A stretch of DNA of 64,000 nucleotides, taken from Methylocystis sp. Its GTDB lineage: Bacteria > Pseudomonadota > Alphaproteobacteria > Rhizobiales > Beijerinckiaceae. The notes under the pieces are model-generated. The model worked only from the letters and a program-made list of their open reading frames with translations, made no database searches and was not told the origin of the DNA. Position numbers and translations under genes: made by a program. Positions 26,467 to 30,837 of this stretch are shown here, in pieces (position 1 is the first letter of the stretch; each line of letters opens with the position of its first letter). The DNA lies in NCBI GenBank assembly GCA_051061385.1, contig JBPFDX010000094.1, positions 7,252 through 71,251 on the forward strand, read 5' to 3'.

Positions 26467-26574
26467 ATGTGGTATTTTTCCTGGATATTGGGTCTGGGGC
26501 TCGCCTGCGCCTTCGCCATTCTCAACGCCATGTGGCTTGAGCTAGATGACGACGACGAGCGGCGGAAGAAATAG
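26467..26574 (+). CDS. cydX: Cytochrome bd small subunit CydX, 35 aa (not in ORF track)
   Basis: MWYFSWILGLGLACAFAILNAMWLE. Confidence 0.92.
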   Translation: MWYFSWILGLGLACAFAILNAMWLELDDDDERRKK

Positions 26575-26588
26575 GCGGCTCCCGGAGC

Positions 26589-26601
26589 GAGACATAGTCG
26601 C
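26589..26601. promoter_or_regulatory. Palindromic motif GAGAC-ATA-GTCGC (copy 4 of 4)
   Basis: Intergenic, 61 nt upstream of the second DUF2892 gene. Confidence 0.5.
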
Positions 26602-26662
26602 TGAGCGATATTGCGCGACGCGATAGGCTCGCATCGTAACCCGTCGCGGGAAGGAGACAGTC

Positions 26663-26848
26663 ATGGAAGCCAATATTGGAAGGACCGATCGCATCATCCG
26701 GATCGTCGTCGGTCTCTTGTTGCTCAGTCTCGTTTTCATCGGGCCGCAGACCTTATGGGGGCTCGTCGGCCTTATCCCGCTGACGACGGCGTTCGTGAAC
26801 TTCTGCCCCGCCTATAAGCTGCTCGGCATGGATACGCTCGGCAAATAG
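26663..26848 (+). CDS. DUF2892 (YgaP-like) membrane protein
   Basis: NIGRTDRIIRIVVG...FCPAYKLLG; GGAG RBS. Confidence 0.88.
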   Translation: MEANIGRTDRIIRIVVGLLLLSLVFIGPQTLWGLVGLIPLTTAFVNFCPAYKLLGMDTLGK

Positions 26849-26936: not shown

Positions 26937-28553
26937 ATGCACGAAACGGCGATCACCTTTCACGCCCGCGGCATGCATTGTCACGGCTGCGAACATGTCA
27001 TCGAAGCGGCGATCAAGAAGCTCGCCGGCGTGCGCAGCGTCTCGGCGAGCTATCCGACGGAAACGGTCGTCGTCGACTATGACGCTGACGCCACGAATTT
27101 CCGCGCGATCCGCGAAAGGGTCGAGCAGAACGGCTACCGCGTCGTTCTAACCGAGGAGGCGAAGCGCCGCCGTTCGCCGCTCGTGCGACTGGCGATCATC
27201 GTCGCGGCGCTCGCCGGGCTCGCCGGTTTGATTCTCTTCGATACGCGCTGGATCAGCGCCGAGGGCGAACCCGACATCGCCCAGCATATGAGTCTCGGCC
27301 TTCTGTTCCTGCTGGGGCTCCTGACAGGCTTCCACTGCGTCGGCATGTGCGGCGCTTTCGTCGTGAGCTATGCGGCGGCCGATGCGCGCGCCGGACGCTC
27401 GTCCTTCGTGTCGCACCTCGCCTATGGCGCCGGAAAGACGCTGTCCTACACGGCGATCGGCGCAGCCTTCGGCTGGCTCGGCGCTTTCATCGCCTTCACG
27501 CCGATGCTGCGCGGCGTCGCCGGAGTCGCCGCAGGCGCGTTCCTCATCATCTTCGGCCTCAACATGCTTGGGCTCTTCGCGCCGCTGCGCCGCTTCCGGC
27601 TCGGCCTGCCGGGGCCGCTGCAGAACTGGGTCAATCGCGAGGCCGGCGGCGCGCGCCATCGGCCGTTCGTGATCGGCCTTCTCAACGGGCTGATGATCGC
27701 CTGCGGTCCGTTGCAGGCGATGTATGTGATGGCGGCGGGGACAGGCAGCCCCATCGAAGGCGCGAAGACGCTCTTCGTCTTCGGCCTTGGAACCTTGCCG
27801 GTGATGCTCGCCTTCGGCGCGCTGACGACGGTGCTTTCGGGCGCCGTCACCCATCGATTGCTGACGGCCTCTGGCGTGATCGTCGTCGCGCTCGGCGCGG
27901 TGATGATCAATCGTGGTCTCATTCTCACGGGTTCAGGCGCCGATCTCGCGTCGGTGATGACCAGCTGGCGGCATTCGGCGCCCGTTGAACTTGCGCAGAC
28001 GTCGCAGGATGCGACTGTCGCGCCGCAAACGCAAACAATCGAGATGGAAGCCAATGGGCTGGGATTCACGCCGAGCCGCTTCACGCTTCTGCGCGGCGTG
28101 CCGGTCAAATGGGTGATCAACGCCACGGAAGTGACGACCTGCAACAATCGAATCGTCGTTCCATCGATGAACCTCGAATTCGACGTCAAACCGGGGCGGC
28201 AGACGATCGAGTTCACGCCCGAGAAAACCGGCGTCATTCCGTGGAGCTGCTGGATGGGCATGTTGCGCGGCGAGTTTGTCGTCGTAGACGCGAAGTCCGG
28301 GCAGGCCTCGCAGCCTGCACAGCCAGCCGCGCCCGCTTCGGACGTTCAGGCCACGCCTGGGGCGACGCCGAGCGCCCCGCCAGCCGCAAAGACCTACACG
28401 GCGCGCCGCGGCGACACGCTGCGTTCGATCGCGAAGCGACTCTATGGCGACGAAAAGCGCTGGCGCGACATTGCCGCCGCCAACCCTGCGCTGAATCCCA
28501 AGAAGCTGCGGCAAGGACAAATCATCAATTTGCCAGTCATCGCGCAGCCGTGA
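26937..28553 (+). CDS. Fusion protein: HMA domain + DsbD_2/TauE-like membrane domain + cupredoxin + LysM
   Basis: GMHCHGC; GFHCVGMCG and ACGPLQAMY; TCNNRI...WSCWMGM; YTARRGDTLRSIAKRLYG...ANP...LRQGQIINLP. Confidence 0.85.
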   Translation: MHETAITFHARGMHCHGCEHVIEAAIKKLAGVRSVSASYPTETVVVDYDADATNFRAIRERVEQNGYRVVLTEEAKRRRSPLVRLAIIVAALAGLAGLILFDTRWISAEGEPDIAQHMSLGLLFLLGLLTGFHCVGMCGAFVVSYAAADARAGRSSFVSHLAYGAGKTLSYTAIGAAFGWLGAFIAFTPMLRGVAGVAAGAFLIIFGLNMLGLFAPLRRFRLGLPGPLQNWVNREAGGARHRPFVIGLLNGLMIACGPLQAMYVMAAGTGSPIEGAKTLFVFGLGTLPVMLAFGALTTVLSGAVTHRLLTASGVIVVALGAVMINRGLILTGSGADLASVMTSWRHSAPVELAQTSQDATVAPQTQTIEMEANGLGFTPSRFTLLRGVPVKWVINATEVTTCNNRIVVPSMNLEFDVKPGRQTIEFTPEKTGVIPWSCWMGMLRGEFVVVDAKSGQASQPAQPAAPASDVQATPGATPSAPPAAKTYTARRGDTLRSIAKRLYGDEKRWRDIAAANPALNPKKLRQGQIINLPVIAQP

Positions 28554-28617: not shown

Positions 28618-29166
28618 ATGATCAAAAAATTCCTGTTCGCCGCGGCTTGCGGGCTGTCGCTATTCGCCGGCGCCGCCGCCTTCGCCGAGGACGATGACGA
28701 TGATCAGGGCGAGCACATGATGCACGAGCAGCATATGAAGATGTCGCCGAAGATGGGCGACACGCGCCAGGAGGTCGATGTTCCATCGCCGATGCGCACG
28801 CAAATGCTCTCTCACATGCGCGGCCACGCCGAGGCGATCGCCGAGATCCTCGCCGCGCTCGGCAAGGGCGACGGCGCGGCGGCGGCCAAAGTCGCCGACG
28901 CGCGCCTCGGCATGGCGTCTTCGGGCGCAGCGGCGTGCAAGCCGAACGCCAAGAGCGGCGAACTCGGCGATATGCCGGCGATGATGGCGCGACACATGCC
29001 CGACGAGATGCGCGCGCTCGGTCTGACGATGCACGAACAGGCGAGCAAATTCGCCCAGGAGGCGGCCAAGATCGGGCCCGGCGGCGACATGCGTCCCGCG
29101 CTTGCCGAATTGTCGCAAGTCGTGCAAGCCTGCAACGCCTGTCACGCCGCCTATCGCCTCGATTAG
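28618..29166 (+). CDS. Periplasmic class II (c'-type) cytochrome c with acidic and His/Met-rich N-terminus
   Basis: Signal peptide; C-terminal CNACH; helical body. Confidence 0.8.
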   Translation: MIKKFLFAAACGLSLFAGAAAFAEDDDDDQGEHMMHEQHMKMSPKMGDTRQEVDVPSPMRTQMLSHMRGHAEAIAEILAALGKGDGAAAAKVADARLGMASSGAAACKPNAKSGELGDMPAMMARHMPDEMRALGLTMHEQASKFAQEAAKIGPGGDMRPALAELSQVVQACNACHAAYRLD

Positions 29167-29257: not shown

Positions 29258-30043
29258 GTGCGCATCGCGACCTGGAACGTCAATTCCGTAAGGCAGCGTC
29301 TCGCGCCGCTTCTCGCCTTTCTGCGGGACGCTGCGCCTGACGCGCTCTGCCTGCAGGAAACCAAGTGCGAGGATCACGCTTTCCCGCGGCTTGAGATCGA
29401 AGACGCGGGATATAACGTCGCCGTCCACGGGCAGAAGGGGTTCAACGGCGTCGCGATCCTGTCGGAGTCGCCGCTGCAGGACGTCGTCCTCGGCCTGCCA
29501 GGCTTCGACGGCGAGGCGCAGTCGCGCTACATCGAGGCGGTTCTCGCCGACGGCGCCGGCGGCGTGATGCGCGTCGCGTCCATCTATGCGCCAAACGGCA
29601 ATCCGCCGGATACGCAGAAATACTCTTACAAACTCGCCTTCATGGAGGCGCTGACGCGACATGCCGACGCGCTGCTGCGTCTCGAAGAGCCGACGGTTCT
29701 CGCCGGCGACTACAACGTCATTCCCGATGCGCGCGACGTCTATGAAGCCTCGGCGTGGCTTGGCGACGCATTATTTTTGCCGCAGACTCGCGCGGCCTAT
29801 CAGCGCCTGATCAATCTCGGCTACGCCGATGCGCTGCGGGCGACGTCGGACGAAGGCGGGCTCTACACGTTCTGGGATTATCAGGCCGGCGCCTGGCAGA
29901 AGAACAAGGGCCTTCGCATCGACCACCTTCTGCTCTCGCCGCGCGCAGCGGATCGGCTGGCGCGCGTGGAGATCGTCAAGTCGATGCGCGCCGGCGACAA
30001 GCCCTCCGATCACGTCGCGATCTACGCCGATTTCGCTGCGTGA
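29258..30043 (+). CDS. xth: Exodeoxyribonuclease III
   Basis: IATWNVNS, LQETK, GDYN, RIDHLL, SDH; GTG start. Confidence 0.95.
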   Translation: MRIATWNVNSVRQRLAPLLAFLRDAAPDALCLQETKCEDHAFPRLEIEDAGYNVAVHGQKGFNGVAILSESPLQDVVLGLPGFDGEAQSRYIEAVLADGAGGVMRVASIYAPNGNPPDTQKYSYKLAFMEALTRHADALLRLEEPTVLAGDYNVIPDARDVYEASAWLGDALFLPQTRAAYQRLINLGYADALRATSDEGGLYTFWDYQAGAWQKNKGLRIDHLLLSPRAADRLARVEIVKSMRAGDKPSDHVAIYADFAA

Positions 30044-30837
30044 TCGAAAAGCCCAAGCGCGCCGCCGCTGCGCCAGAGCACATAGAGCGCCACCGCGAAG
30101 ACCACCGTGGCGAAGACGGCGCTCAGCGCGCCGCGCATTTTCGACAGTCGCCGCGCCACCGCGGCGCCGATCAGCCCGCCGAACGCGCCGCCGATCACCA
30201 GCGTTCCGGCAAGCTCCCATTCGACGAGGTCTGAATAGGCGTAGTTCGCCGCCGTCGTGACCGCAAAGGCGGCGACGGCGACGAGCGACGAGCCGATGGC
30301 GTTCAGGATCGGCATGTCGGAAGCGAACATCAGCCCGGGCACGATCAGGAAGCCGCCGCCGATCCCGAAGAAGCCGGAAAGCGCGCCCGCCGTCACGCCG
30401 GCGCCCGCGAGCCGCGGAAAATTCTCGCGGTTGAGTCTTACCGAGGGATATCCCAAGGAGCCCCGACGGCGCAGCATGAGATAGGACACGACGATCATCA
30501 GCAGCGCGAAGAGCGCGAGCAGCTTCTCGCCATTGATGATCTTGCCGAGCGTCGATCCTGCGAAGGCGCCGCCGATGCCGAAAAGCGCGAAAACGGAAGC
30601 GCAGCGCCATTTGATAGTGCGCGCGCGCGCATGATTGGCGAGACTCATCAGCGCATTGACCGCGACCGCCGCCGCGCTCGAGCCGATCGCGACATGCGGA
30701 TTCGGCACGCCAACGAAATAGACGAGAAGCGGCACGGCAAGCACCGAGCCGCCGCCGCCGACCAGGCCGAGCGTAAAGCCGACGAGGGCGCCGGAGATCA
30801 GGCCGAGCACGGCGTCGAGGGGAAGAGCCGTCAGCAT
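30022..30837 (-). CDS. TauE/SafE sulfite exporter
   Basis: GLVGGGGSVLAVP, GFFGIGGGFLIVP repeats. Confidence 0.9.
   Translation of the reverse strand: MLTALPLDAVLGLISGALVGFTLGLVGGGGSVLAVPLLVYFVGVPNPHVAIGSSAAAVAVNALMSLANHARARTIKWRCASVFALFGIGGAFAGSTLGKIINGEKLLALFALLMIVVSYLMLRRRGSLGYPSVRLNRENFPRLAGAGVTAGALSGFFGIGGGFLIVPGLMFASDMPILNAIGSSLVAVAAFAVTTAANYAYSDLVEWELAGTLVIGGAFGGLIGAAVARRLSKMRGALSAVFATVVFAVALYVLWRSGGALGLFDHAAKSA

What the first reader, a model, noticed from the sequence alone, without database searches (positions are those of the whole stretch)
26937..28553. Four-domain HMA-DsbD_2-cupredoxin-LysM fusion
Seen: N-terminal HMA (GMHCHGC), a membrane domain with HCVGMCG and ACGP Cys motifs, a CupA-like cupredoxin (C...CWMGM), an Ala/Pro linker and a C-terminal LysM. 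HMA + DsbD_2 + cupredoxin is a known but poorly characterised architecture; I do not recognise the added LysM. Inference: a trans-membrane Cu(I)/thiol relay whose periplasmic end is tethered to peptidoglycan. This matters where sulfide precipitates copper, and especially in a copper-dependent methanotroph.
Basis: partly seen in the sequence, partly recalled or inferred. Interest (0 to 1): 0.65.

Follow-up and report, generated by a model that had tools for sequence, protein, structure and literature searches.

The report
Wall-anchored copper relay in methanotroph sulfide island
This Methylocystis gene encodes a membrane protein with copper-binding cysteine sites inside the cell, within the membrane and in the periplasm, plus a cell-wall-binding tail found only in a few methane-oxidising genera; it sits in the sulfide-detoxification gene cluster and probably keeps copper traffic going when sulfide is present, but nothing of this family has been tested in the laboratory.

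Summary
ORF 26937-28553 (+) encodes 538 aa. Pfam finds all four domains above their curated cut-offs: HMA, DsbD_2, Cupredoxin_1 and LysM.

- **Model:** the LysM folds as beta-alpha-alpha-beta with pLDDT about 90. The cupredoxin's best solved match is S. pneumoniae CupA, and all four CupA Cu(I) ligands are conserved.
- **Topology:** seven TM helices and the positive-inside rule put HMA in the cytoplasm and cupredoxin plus LysM in the periplasm.
- **Core family:** HMA-DsbD_2-cupredoxin is a very large family (DPANN archaea, Clostridia, CPR, spirochaetes, gamma-methanotrophs). I found no study of it. A P1B copper ATPase lies within three genes in 44 of 77 loci.
- **LysM form:** gained once. It occurs in Methylocystis (43 of 52 good genomes) and Methylocapsa only.
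- **This copy:** it belongs to a derived clade inserted in the sqr-cydAB-pdo-tauE sulfide island. There it forms a ygaP-like/target/Met-rich cytochrome c' trio behind the island's Crp/Fnr palindrome. Basal copies lie near Csp1 and an orphan pmoC.

Best reading (about 0.55): an ATP-independent Cu(I) thiolate relay across the inner membrane, tethered to peptidoglycan and expressed with sulfide defence. Direction, metal and wall binding are all untested. It is a new variant of a known but uncharacterised kind.

The parts
26589..26601 (.). 13-bp palindrome GAGACATAGTCGC, the same motif that precedes sqr; candidate operator of the neighbouring Crp/Fnr regulator, 62 bp before the ygaP-like start
   Evidence: 4 matches in the window against 0.44 expected; a copy lies 60-75 bp upstream of the ygaP-like gene in 7 of 12 orthologous loci. 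My reading of the sequence: a TAGGCT -10-like hexamer at 26624-26629 puts the palindrome centre about 41 bp before a likely transcription start (inference).
26663..26848 (+). 61-aa YgaP-like two-helix membrane protein (DUF2892) with an FCP cysteine motif; first gene of the conserved trio
   Evidence: PF11127, 79.6 bits; directly upstream of the target in 10 of the 12 island loci (3.4 kb away in L057, absent in L045).
26937..28553 (+). The 538-aa HMA-DsbD_2-cupredoxin-LysM protein (whole gene)
26955..27137 (+). Cytoplasmic CopZ-like HMA domain (residues 7-67), metal site M13-H14-C15-x-G17-C18
   Evidence: 65.5 bits. CopZ, MerP and MerTP models match this stretch. M13, H14, C15, G17 and C18 are invariant. 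There is no signal peptide, and KRRR precedes TM0.
27180..27239 (+). Extra transmembrane helix TM0 (residues 82-101) that puts HMA and the C-terminal domains on opposite faces
   Evidence: helix 81-106; loop charges are 10 K+R inside against 2 outside.
27303..27899 (+). Six-helix DsbD_2 (CcdA/DsbD-related) core (residues 123-321). TM1 carries H133-C134-x-x-M137-C138. TM4 is broken at A255-C256-G257-P258 and is followed by M262 and M265
   Evidence: 147.7 bits. C134 and C256 invariant, H133, M137, C138, G257, P258, L259 and Q260 invariant or nearly so across 116 and 36 distant relatives; hhalign to the genome's own CcdA gives probability 83.6% and E 8e-6, with C256 aligned to the CcdA TM4 cysteine; model pLDDT 85.5.
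28002..28283 (+). Periplasmic CupA-type cupredoxin (residues 356-449) with ligands C402, C438, M440, M442 and no His ligands
   Evidence: 28.6 bits; 4F2E and 4F2F are the top hits. C402 aligns with the first CupA cysteine (...spC...) and C438-x-M440-x-M442 with CupA's C-G-M-N-M. C402, C438 and M440 invariant and M442 nearly invariant in 116 relatives.
28296..28391 (+). Ala/Pro/Gln-rich, low-confidence linker (residues about 454-485), variable in length and sequence between species
   Evidence: pLDDT 30-33; gapped, unconserved columns.
28395..28535 (+). C-terminal LysM domain (residues 487-533)
   Evidence: 23.0 bits against a cut-off of 20.9; beta-alpha-alpha-beta fold, pLDDT 89-93; solved LysM domains match. 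G492, D493, I512, N516 and G527 are invariant.
28618..29166 (+). 182-aa secreted cytochrome c'-like four-helix protein with a C-terminal CNACH. It is 10-13% Met and has a His/Met-rich N-terminus. Third gene of the trio
   Evidence: PF01322, 29.6 bits; conserved Met/His motifs; adjacent to the target in most island genomes.

Best explanation
**What the protein looks like (shown by sequence, models and comparison)**
- It is an inner-membrane protein with three soft-metal sites in a row.
- The first is a cytoplasmic CopZ-like HMA site (MHCHGC).
- The second is an intramembrane site: H133, C134, M137 and C138 on TM1, facing C256 at the break of TM4. The scaffold is CcdA/DsbD-related.
- The third is a periplasmic CupA-type site (C402, C438, M440, M442).
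- After the cupredoxin comes a flexible Ala/Pro linker and a LysM domain.

**How it probably works (inferred)**
- Cu(I) is handed by ligand exchange from one site to the next across the membrane, without ATP. The membrane domain would alternate access much as CcdA does for its cysteine pair.
- I favour movement from cytoplasm to periplasm, about 60:40 over import. The reasons are that most relatives sit in CopA/CsoR/CopZ export operons, and basal Methylocystis copies lie by the periplasmic copper store Csp1 and an orphan pmoC.
- The LysM would tie the outer end to peptidoglycan. That would hold the Cu(I)-loaded cupredoxin at the wall-lined peripheral membrane.

**This genome**
- The gene forms an operon-like trio with a YgaP-like membrane protein and a Met-rich cytochrome c'-like protein.
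- The trio sits behind the Crp/Fnr palindrome that also precedes sqr-cydAB.
- It is therefore probably switched on together with sulfide oxidation.
- The likely purpose is to keep copper protein-bound and moving while sulfide would otherwise sequester it or poison copper enzymes such as pMMO.
For: **Domains and motifs:**

**Conservation of every Cys, His and Met ligand:** across 26 close, 36 mixed and 116 distant relatives.

**Topology:**
- Seven helices in two models.
- Ten K+R on the proposed cytoplasmic loops against two outside.
- No signal peptide before the HMA.
- A LysM at the C-terminus fits an outside location.

**CupA likeness:**
- Foldseek top hits are 4F2E and 4F2F.
- phmmer gives E 1.2e-8 with all four ligands aligned.
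- CupA's binuclear Cu(I) site, with a bis-thiolate S1 and a Met-rich S2, is described in PMC7558416.

**Copper context of the family:**
- A P1B ATPase (E1-E2_ATPase plus three HMA) lies within three genes in 44 of 77 loci from archaea, Bacillota, spirochaetes and CPR.
- CsoR, FtrD-like proteins and two-component systems also recur.
- The arrangement is CopZ-target-CopA in Methylohalobius and target-CopA in Nitrosospira.

**Methanotroph and copper link:**
- The nearest outgroups of the LysM clade are gamma-methanotroph proteins.
- Csp1 (E 2.8e-43 to 5FJD) lies 2-6 kb from basal Methylocystis copies in 4 of 7 loci.
- An orphan pmoC lies directly upstream in one locus.

**Sulfide link:**
- The block Crp/Fnr-sqr-cydAB-ygaP-target-cyt c'-xth-tauE-pdo is kept in 10 of 20 sampled loci, and two more keep it in rearranged or partial form. 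These are all of the sampled copies at 64% identity or more, and most keep the trio when the block is rearranged.
- The palindrome occurs 4 times against 0.44 expected in the window. It is conserved before the ygaP-like gene in 7 of 12 loci.
- H2S binding to copper and inhibiting pMMO is discussed in PMC10205796.

**CcdA relationship:** hhalign probability 83.6%, with the TM4 cysteines aligned.
Against: - No experiment exists on any member of the family. Metal identity, binding, transport and direction are all inferred.
- A passive carrier needs a driving force. None is identified.
- The TM-domain model has no significant match to any solved structure (best Foldseek E 0.5). An elevator-type mechanism is therefore analogy only.
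- This genome's copy is not next to any copper gene. Its CopA, Csp1 and pmoC genes lie on other contigs.
- No enzyme of the sulfide island uses copper.
- The palindrome before the trio is missing at one mismatch or fewer in 5 of 12 orthologous loci.
- LysM domains do not always bind peptidoglycan. The closest solved LysM by sequence is that of E. coli Kbp, deposited as a potassium-binding protein.
Confidence: 0.55

Rival explanations
1. It is a thiol-disulfide (electron) conduit, not a metal conduit. The DsbD_2 core would work as in CcdA, DsbD or ScsB, carrying reducing equivalents to the periplasm. There it would keep the cupredoxin's two cysteines reduced so that they can bind or reduce copper (a periplasmic cupric reductase or chaperone). 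Alternatively it would reduce the CxxCH of the adjacent cytochrome c'-like apoprotein for haem attachment.
For: - The membrane domain is homologous to the genome's own CcdA. The TM4 cysteine aligns with the redox cysteine.
- NCBIfam DsbD matches residues 153-328.
- Some relatives also hit PF02683.
- A c-type cytochrome gene follows directly.
- CupA reduces Cu(II) through its S1 cysteines in vitro (PMC7558416).
- Periplasmic Cys pairs need a reductant.
Against: - The cytoplasmic domain is an HMA, not a thioredoxin-like partner.
- TM1 carries H-C-x-x-M-C-G, which are soft-metal ligands, in place of the P-C-x-x-P seen in the genome's own CcdA (LSPCVLP).
- Across the family the constant neighbour is a copper ATPase, not a cytochrome or cytochrome-maturation genes.
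- The cytochrome c' association is confined to the island clade, and that cytochrome has paralogues elsewhere without the target.
Confidence: 0.2
2. It is a sulfur-species transporter, as its database names suggest ('sulfite exporter TauE/SafE family'). It would carry sulfite, or sulfane sulfur as persulfide or polysulfide, on its cysteines as part of the sulfide-oxidation pathway.
For: - It lies inside a conserved sulfide-oxidation island and behind the island's operator.
- Its upstream partner is a YgaP-like (DUF2892) protein, a type often found with sulfur genes.
- Public sources give it TauE/SafE names.
- Cysteine relays do carry sulfane sulfur in other systems (general knowledge).
Against: - Pfam TauE (PF01925) does not match the protein at E<=0.01. 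A true TauE (166.8 bits) is encoded separately at 30022-30837.
- The family's ancestral and dominant context is CopA/CsoR/CopZ.
- The island location is derived within the LysM clade.
- The HMA and CupA-type sites include Met and His ligands, which serve metals and not sulfur transfer.
Confidence: 0.1
3. It is an importer or relay for copper in the inward direction, or for another thiophilic metal (Hg, Ag, Au, Cd), built like the Mer system. A periplasmic binding domain (here the cupredoxin, MerP in Mer) would pass the metal to membrane cysteines (MerT) and on to a cytoplasmic HMA (NmerA-like).
For: - The order periplasmic binder, membrane Cys pair, cytoplasmic HMA mirrors MerP-MerT-NmerA (established knowledge of the mer system).
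- NCBIfam MerTP, MerP and MerA models match the HMA.
- Methanotrophs have a high copper demand, and sulfide makes copper scarce (PMC10205796).
- The wider TM family includes the ArsG-type soft-metalloid permease model, as a weak match.
Against: - Most relatives sit in copper-export operons with CopA and CsoR. This fits export or export assistance better than uptake.
- No mer or ars genes are near any copy examined.
- The matches to Mer and Ars models are far below their cut-offs and, for the Mer models, confined to the HMA domain.
Confidence: 0.15

Closest known systems
CupA, and the cupredoxin-type N-terminal metal-binding domain of CopA, of Streptococcus pneumoniae (PDB 4F2E/2MRY, 4F2F)
   Same: Same fold: Foldseek TM-score 0.84 on the target with 28% identity, phmmer E 1.2e-8. 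Same four ligands, C...C-x-M-x-M, with no His. CupA is also held at the membrane and also occurs in copper operons.
   Different: CupA is a small protein on one N-terminal helix. Its domain faces the cytoplasm and feeds CopA (PMC7558416). Here the domain is fused after seven helices, is predicted to face the periplasm, and carries a LysM tail.
The uncharacterised HMA-DsbD_2-cupredoxin family (annotated 'sulfite exporter TauE/SafE family protein', 'urease accessory protein UreH domain-containing protein' or 'heavy metal transporter')
   Same: The target is a member. It has the same three domains in the same order, and every Cys, His and Met motif is conserved.
   Different: Other members end in Cys-rich tails (GGCGCGG, SCCG) or in a second or third cupredoxin, and usually sit by a P1B ATPase. 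This clade ends in an Ala/Pro linker plus LysM. It is limited to Methylocystis and Methylocapsa, and here it sits in a sulfide island.
CcdA / DsbD / ScsB membrane thiol-disulfide transporters
   Same: Homologous six-helix core. One cysteine lies in TM1 and one at a Gly-Pro break in TM4. hhalign to the genome's own CcdA gives probability 83.6% and E 8e-6.
   Different: TM1 has H-C-x-x-M-C-G instead of P-C-x-x-P. There is an extra N-terminal helix. The fused partner domains are metal-binding and not thioredoxin-like. No solved structure matches the model by Foldseek.
The mercury relay MerP-MerT-NmerA
   Same: A chain of thiolate sites: outside, in the membrane, then on a cytoplasmic HMA domain. 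It moves a soft metal by ligand exchange without ATP (established knowledge).
   Different: The membrane protein is unrelated. The outer binder is a cupredoxin and not an HMA. All parts are fused in one chain. The direction here is unknown and the context is copper or sulfide, not mer.
LysM of E. coli Kbp (YgaU) and other single LysM tails
   Same: Closest solved LysM by sequence (E 1.2e-5). It shares the Y-x-V-x-x-GDTL...YG...N...GQ...LP pattern. The same genome has another inner-membrane protein ending in an Ala/Pro linker plus a 48%-identical LysM.
   Different: The Kbp entry is deposited as a potassium-binding protein. Here the LysM is predicted periplasmic, at the end of a polytopic membrane protein.

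Membership tests
HMA / CopZ-like metal-binding domain (PF00403) | Profile match above the curated cut-off, with the M-x-C-x-x-C loop | tested here: met
   65.5 bits against 24.8. M13-H14-C15-H16-G17-C18 is conserved. The model shows a beta-alpha-beta-beta-alpha-beta fold.
DsbD_2 (PF13386) | Profile match above the curated cut-off over the six-helix core | tested here: met
   147.7 bits against 24.9, covering profile positions 2-198 of 199.
CcdA/DsbD thiol-disulfide transporters | One redox cysteine in TM1 and one in TM4 of a 3+3 helix core | tested here: met
   C134 and C138 lie in TM1. C256 in TM4 aligns with the CcdA TM4 cysteine. These cysteines are invariant or nearly so in 116 relatives.
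CcdA/DsbD thiol-disulfide transporters | Pro-flanked cysteine motif (P-C-x-x-P) in TM1, and a whole-protein match to the DsbD_TM model | tested here: not met
   TM1 reads F-H-C-V-G-M-C-G, whereas the genome's own CcdA reads S-P-C-V-L-P. PF02683 did not match this protein. The genome search with PF02683 found two other genes and not this one.
CcdA/DsbD thiol-disulfide transporters | Transfers electrons from cytoplasmic thioredoxin to periplasmic thiol oxidoreductases | not testable with these tools
   Needs redox-state assays.
CupA-type Cu(I) cupredoxin (PF13473 Cupredoxin_1) | Cupredoxin fold with the ligand set Cys...Cys-x-Met-x-Met and no His ligands | tested here: met
   28.6 bits against 27. 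4F2E is the top Foldseek hit. The ligands align and are invariant or nearly so.
CupA-type Cu(I) cupredoxin | Single N-terminal anchor helix, with the domain in the cytoplasm delivering Cu(I) to CopA | tested here: not met
   The domain follows seven helices and is predicted periplasmic. No CopA is adjacent in this genome.
CupA-type Cu(I) cupredoxin | Binds Cu(I) in a binuclear S1/S2 site | not testable with these tools
   Needs metal-binding assays or a structure.
LysM (PF01476) | Profile match above the curated cut-off and a beta-alpha-alpha-beta fold | tested here: met
   23.0 bits against 20.9. The model shows E486-488, H495-503, H506-515 and E529-531 at pLDDT about 90. Solved LysM domains match.
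LysM (PF01476) | Binds peptidoglycan or another GlcNAc polymer | not testable with these tools
   Needs a sacculus pull-down.
TauE/SafE sulfite exporter (PF01925), the name given by public sources | Match to the TauE profile | tested here: not met
   No PF01925 hit at E<=0.01 for this protein. The neighbouring gene at 30022-30837 scores 166.8 bits.
ArsG aromatic-arsenical efflux permease (NF040495) | Score above the NCBIfam cut-off | tested here: not met
   23 bits against a cut-off of 200. This is distant superfamily likeness only.
MerT/MerTP mercury transporters | Match to the MerT membrane part | tested here: not met
   The MerTP model matches only the HMA (model positions 122-185), at 50 bits against a cut-off of 180.

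The most novel reading that the evidence does not exclude
The CcdA/DsbD fold has been re-used as an ATP-independent Cu(I) conduit. In alphaproteobacterial methanotrophs this conduit gained a peptidoglycan anchor. The anchor would confine it to the wall-lined peripheral membrane and keep it out of the intracytoplasmic pMMO membranes. One Methylocystis lineage then wired it into a sulfide-responsive Crp/Fnr regulon, together with a Met-rich cytochrome c'-like partner. Copper for pMMO and Csp1 would then be passed hand to hand and never exposed to sulfide. This would be a dedicated 'copper under sulfide' supply line.
Probability: 0.2. Interest if true: 0.8.

Novelty: new variant of a known kind. 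Interest (0 to 1): 0.55.

Why it matters
How Cu(I) crosses the inner membrane other than through P1B ATPases is an open question in copper biology. So is how methanotrophs load periplasmic copper proteins such as pMMO and Csp1.

This family is very large, is mislabelled as a sulfite exporter, and is untested in the literature I could search. It offers a self-contained candidate, with ligand sites on both faces and inside the membrane.

The Methylocystis form adds three testable points:
- **A cell-wall anchor.**
- **Co-regulation with sulfide detoxification.** This bears on how methane oxidation survives at oxic-sulfidic interfaces in wetlands and sediments.
- **Genetic tractability.** Methylocystis can be cultured and manipulated, unlike the DPANN and CPR organisms that hold most relatives.

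If the protein only buffers or chaperones copper, it is an ordinary accessory protein with an unusual tail.

Tried and rejected
- **Fold search of the membrane domain alone.** The model had pLDDT 85.5. Foldseek against the PDB gave nothing significant (best E 0.5, unrelated transporters). No structural template supports any mechanism.
- **phmmer of the membrane part against PDB sequences.** Only chance hits.
- **Literature.** Six searches with combinations of DsbD_2, UreH, TauE, HMA, cupredoxin, CupA, DsbD, LysM, methanotroph and Methylocystis found no paper on this architecture. A Hyphomicrobium paper that held several of the terms proved irrelevant.
- **Sequencing runs.** Co-transcription of the trio and any sulfide response could not be checked.
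- **Pfam on the 116-sequence alignment.** I replaced it with phmmer domain mapping in Python.
- **Class-wide genome search.** It found no full-length relative in 400 Alphaproteobacteria. Only three candidates per genome were scored, so absence there is a weak statement.
- **LysM in gamma-methanotroph relatives.** tblastn matches ran to residue about 515, but their C-termini are not LysM. Rejected.
- **Cytochrome c'-like partner as a strict companion.** It has paralogues in unrelated contexts and in genomes without the target. Rejected.
- **Copper genes beside this genome's copy.** CopA, Csp1 and pmoC lie on other contigs. Rejected.
Full report
**1. The observation**

The window holds one uninterrupted ORF at 26937-28553 (+) of 538 codons. 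Pfam finds four domains, each above its curated cut-off:
- HMA, residues 7-67, 65.5 bits.
- DsbD_2, residues 123-321, 147.7 bits.
- Cupredoxin_1, residues 356-449, 28.6 bits against 27.
- LysM, residues 487-533, 23.0 bits against 20.9.

The protein has seven cysteines and every one lies in one of these motifs.

The two marginal calls were tested independently. An AlphaFold2 model built on 26 homologues gives the cupredoxin pLDDT 80-93 and the LysM pLDDT 89-93, with the canonical beta-alpha-alpha-beta order. Foldseek against the PDB ranks the Cu(I) chaperone CupA of S. pneumoniae (4F2E, TM-score 0.84 on the target) and the cupredoxin-type metal-binding domain of its CopA (4F2F) first. phmmer finds CupA at E 1.2e-8 and solved LysM domains at 1e-5 to 1e-3. 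In that alignment C402 pairs with the first CupA cysteine, and C438-W-M440-G-M442 pairs with CupA's C-G-M-N-M. These are the S1 and S2 ligands described in PMC7558416.

**2. Topology**

Both models show seven membrane helices: an extra TM0 (82-101) followed by the six of DsbD_2. The loops on the proposed cytoplasmic side carry ten Lys+Arg and those on the other side two. KRRR directly follows the HMA, which has no signal peptide. So the HMA is cytoplasmic and the cupredoxin and LysM are periplasmic. In CupA the cupredoxin faces the other way. TM4 is broken at A-C256-G-P in the model. H133, C134, M137 and C138 sit in TM1.

**3. Who has it**

The organism is a Methylocystis (names). Its genome has one full copy.
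- In the genus, 43 of 52 good-quality species genomes have a full-length homologue that reaches the LysM.
- In a 121-genome sample of the family, only Methylocystis and one other genus do. That genus's copy groups tightly with Methylocapsa aurea.
- In 400 other Alphaproteobacteria there was no full-length hit. That search scored few candidates per genome.

The three-domain core without LysM is very widespread. The search found 4098 clusters at 50% identity with E<=1e-10 and 815 with E<=1e-30. Among the best 150 representatives:
- 78 are HMA-TM-cupredoxin.
- About 29 carry two or three cupredoxins.
- Only two carry LysM, and both are Methylocystis-like.

Named genomes with the core include DPANN archaea, Clostridia and other Bacillota, Treponema, Patescibacteria, gamma-methanotrophs (without HMA) and Nitrosospira (HMA-TM only). 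LysM appears only in Methylocystis and Methylocapsa. Non-LysM members typically end in Cys-rich tails such as GGCGCGG or SCCG.

C134, C256, C402, C438 and M440 are invariant across 116 distant relatives. C15, C18, H133, M137, C138, G257, P258, L259, Q260, N403, W439, G441 and M442 are nearly so.

**4. What the family does, judged from its neighbours**

I clustered the three genes on either side of 77 non-Methylocystis loci.
- In 44 loci a P1B-type ATPase (E1-E2_ATPase with three HMA domains) is present, mostly next door on the same strand.
- Recurrent others are a CsoR-type repressor, an FtrD-like Cys protein, and histidine kinase/response regulator pairs.
- Methylohalobius has CopZ-target-CopA and Nitrosospira has target-CopA.

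This is a copper-operon family. Public names such as 'sulfite exporter TauE/SafE' are not supported. The TauE profile does not match this protein, and a true TauE is encoded separately at 30022-30837. Earlier notes of this scan on the three-domain core in other genomes reached the same reading. I count them as agreement, not as evidence.

**5. The membrane domain**

It is related to CcdA/DsbD. A profile of the family aligns with this genome's own CcdA at 83.6% probability (E 8e-6), with C256 on the CcdA TM4 cysteine. NCBIfam DsbD also matches residues 153-328. TM1, however, reads H-C-x-x-M-C-G rather than P-C-x-x-P. The PF02683 model does not pick this gene. No solved structure resembles the model. 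The added His, Met and second Cys are soft-metal ligands. This is why I prefer metal passage to electron passage, but the point is inferred.

**6. History of the LysM form and its contexts**

A maximum-likelihood tree puts all LysM-bearing proteins in one clade (100/100). Gamma-methanotroph proteins are the nearest outgroups, followed by DPANN archaea. LysM was therefore gained once.

Within the clade the copies that lie in the sulfide island form a derived group (100/99). The basal Methylocystis copies (57-63% identical to the target) lie elsewhere.
- In four of seven such loci a Csp1 copper-storage gene (E 2.8e-43 to 5FJD) is 2-6 kb away.
- In one locus an orphan pmoC is the immediate upstream gene.

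The same genome has another inner-membrane protein ending in an acidic/Ala/Pro linker and a 48%-identical LysM. It is a plausible source of the module.

**7. This copy's surroundings**

All sampled copies at 64% identity or more lie in, or within 5 kb of, the block Crp/Fnr - sqr - cydAB - ygaP-like - target - cytochrome c'-like - xth - tauE - pdo - Sel1. Most of them keep the ygaP-like/target/cytochrome trio together even where the sqr-cyd part is inverted.

The 13-bp palindrome that precedes sqr occurs four times in the window against 0.44 expected. One copy is at 26589-26601, 62 bp before the ygaP-like start. A copy sits 60-75 bp before that gene in 7 of 12 orthologous loci and in none of the non-island loci. 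From the sequence, a TAGGCT hexamer lies where a -10 box would put the palindrome centre near -41. That spacing is typical of Crp/Fnr-activated promoters (inference). No convincing terminator separates the three genes.

The third gene encodes a secreted cytochrome c'-like protein with C-terminal CNACH. It is 10-13% methionine and has a conserved DHHDHMQMM-type N-terminus. This composition is typical of periplasmic Cu(I) binders. It has paralogues elsewhere, so it is not an obligate partner.

**8. Interpretation**

- **Shown:** the architecture, the ligand conservation, the predicted topology, the copper-operon context of the family, the single origin and narrow range of the LysM form, and the conserved placement of this sub-clade in a sulfide island behind a shared palindrome.
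- **Inferred:** Cu(I) is the substrate. It is passed HMA to TM site to cupredoxin (export favoured about 60:40). The LysM binds peptidoglycan. The trio is induced with sulfide oxidation to keep copper protein-bound when sulfide would sequester it or poison pMMO and haem-copper oxidases (PMC10205796).
- **Rivals:** a CcdA-like reductant conduit serving the outer cysteines or the neighbouring cytochrome, a sulfur-species carrier, and an inward Mer-like relay for copper or another soft metal.

**9. Verdict**

The core family is known to databases, and to this scan, but no study of it was found. The LysM form is a lineage-specific variant of it. It is interesting mainly because it occurs in culturable methanotrophs, in a regulated sulfide context, where the family's function could at last be tested.

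Noticed in passing
window 28618-29166 (+): The cytochrome c'-like neighbour is 10-13% Met and about 5% His. It has a conserved DHHDHMQMMSKM-type N-terminus, one extra conserved Cys and a C-terminal CNACH. It looks like a haem protein that also binds copper. Paralogues at 53-59% identity sit near gyrB and recQ in other Methylocystis genomes.
   Followed up: partly
L048 10935-11687 (-) and 12533-12967 (+); also L047, L049, L050: Basal (non-island) LysM-form copies in Methylocystis lie 2-6 kb from a Tat-signal Csp1 copper-storage gene (E 2.8e-43 to PDB 5FJD). In L048 the copy lies directly downstream of an orphan pmoC (PF04896, 253 bits).
   Followed up: partly
L002 1483-2442 (-) (own genome, contig C10): A 319-aa polytopic inner-membrane protein of unknown function ends in an acidic/Ala/Pro linker and a LysM 48% identical to the target's tail. 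The same C-terminal module is thus used twice in this genome.
   Followed up: no
P0028, P0030 (metagenome relatives, about 690 aa): Some LysM-form relatives carry two tandem, nearly identical CupA-type cupredoxins before the LysM.
   Followed up: no
L060-L138 (C-termini of family members): Most non-LysM members end in short Cys-rich tails: GGCGCGG in DPANN and CPR, SCCG or CCQ in Bacillota and spirochaetes. This looks like a further outward metal site that the LysM replaced in methanotrophs.
   Followed up: no
window 26468-26575 (+): A small ORF (MWYFSWILGLGLACAFAILNAMWLELDDDDERRKK) lies between cydB and the palindrome. It looks like the CydX small subunit.
   Followed up: no
G123:C5:1450-3114, G182:C12:467138-468793, G140:C5:85462-86985: In a few Methylocystis genomes the homologue is hit as two adjacent pieces, split around residue 360-410. 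These could be frameshifts, pseudogenes or assembly errors.
   Followed up: no
L072, L073, L076 (Methylococcaceae): Gamma-methanotroph relatives lack the HMA, end in a short unconserved non-LysM tail (possibly helical), and sit divergently from an 800-820-aa P-type ATPase with an unusual N-terminal domain.
   Followed up: no
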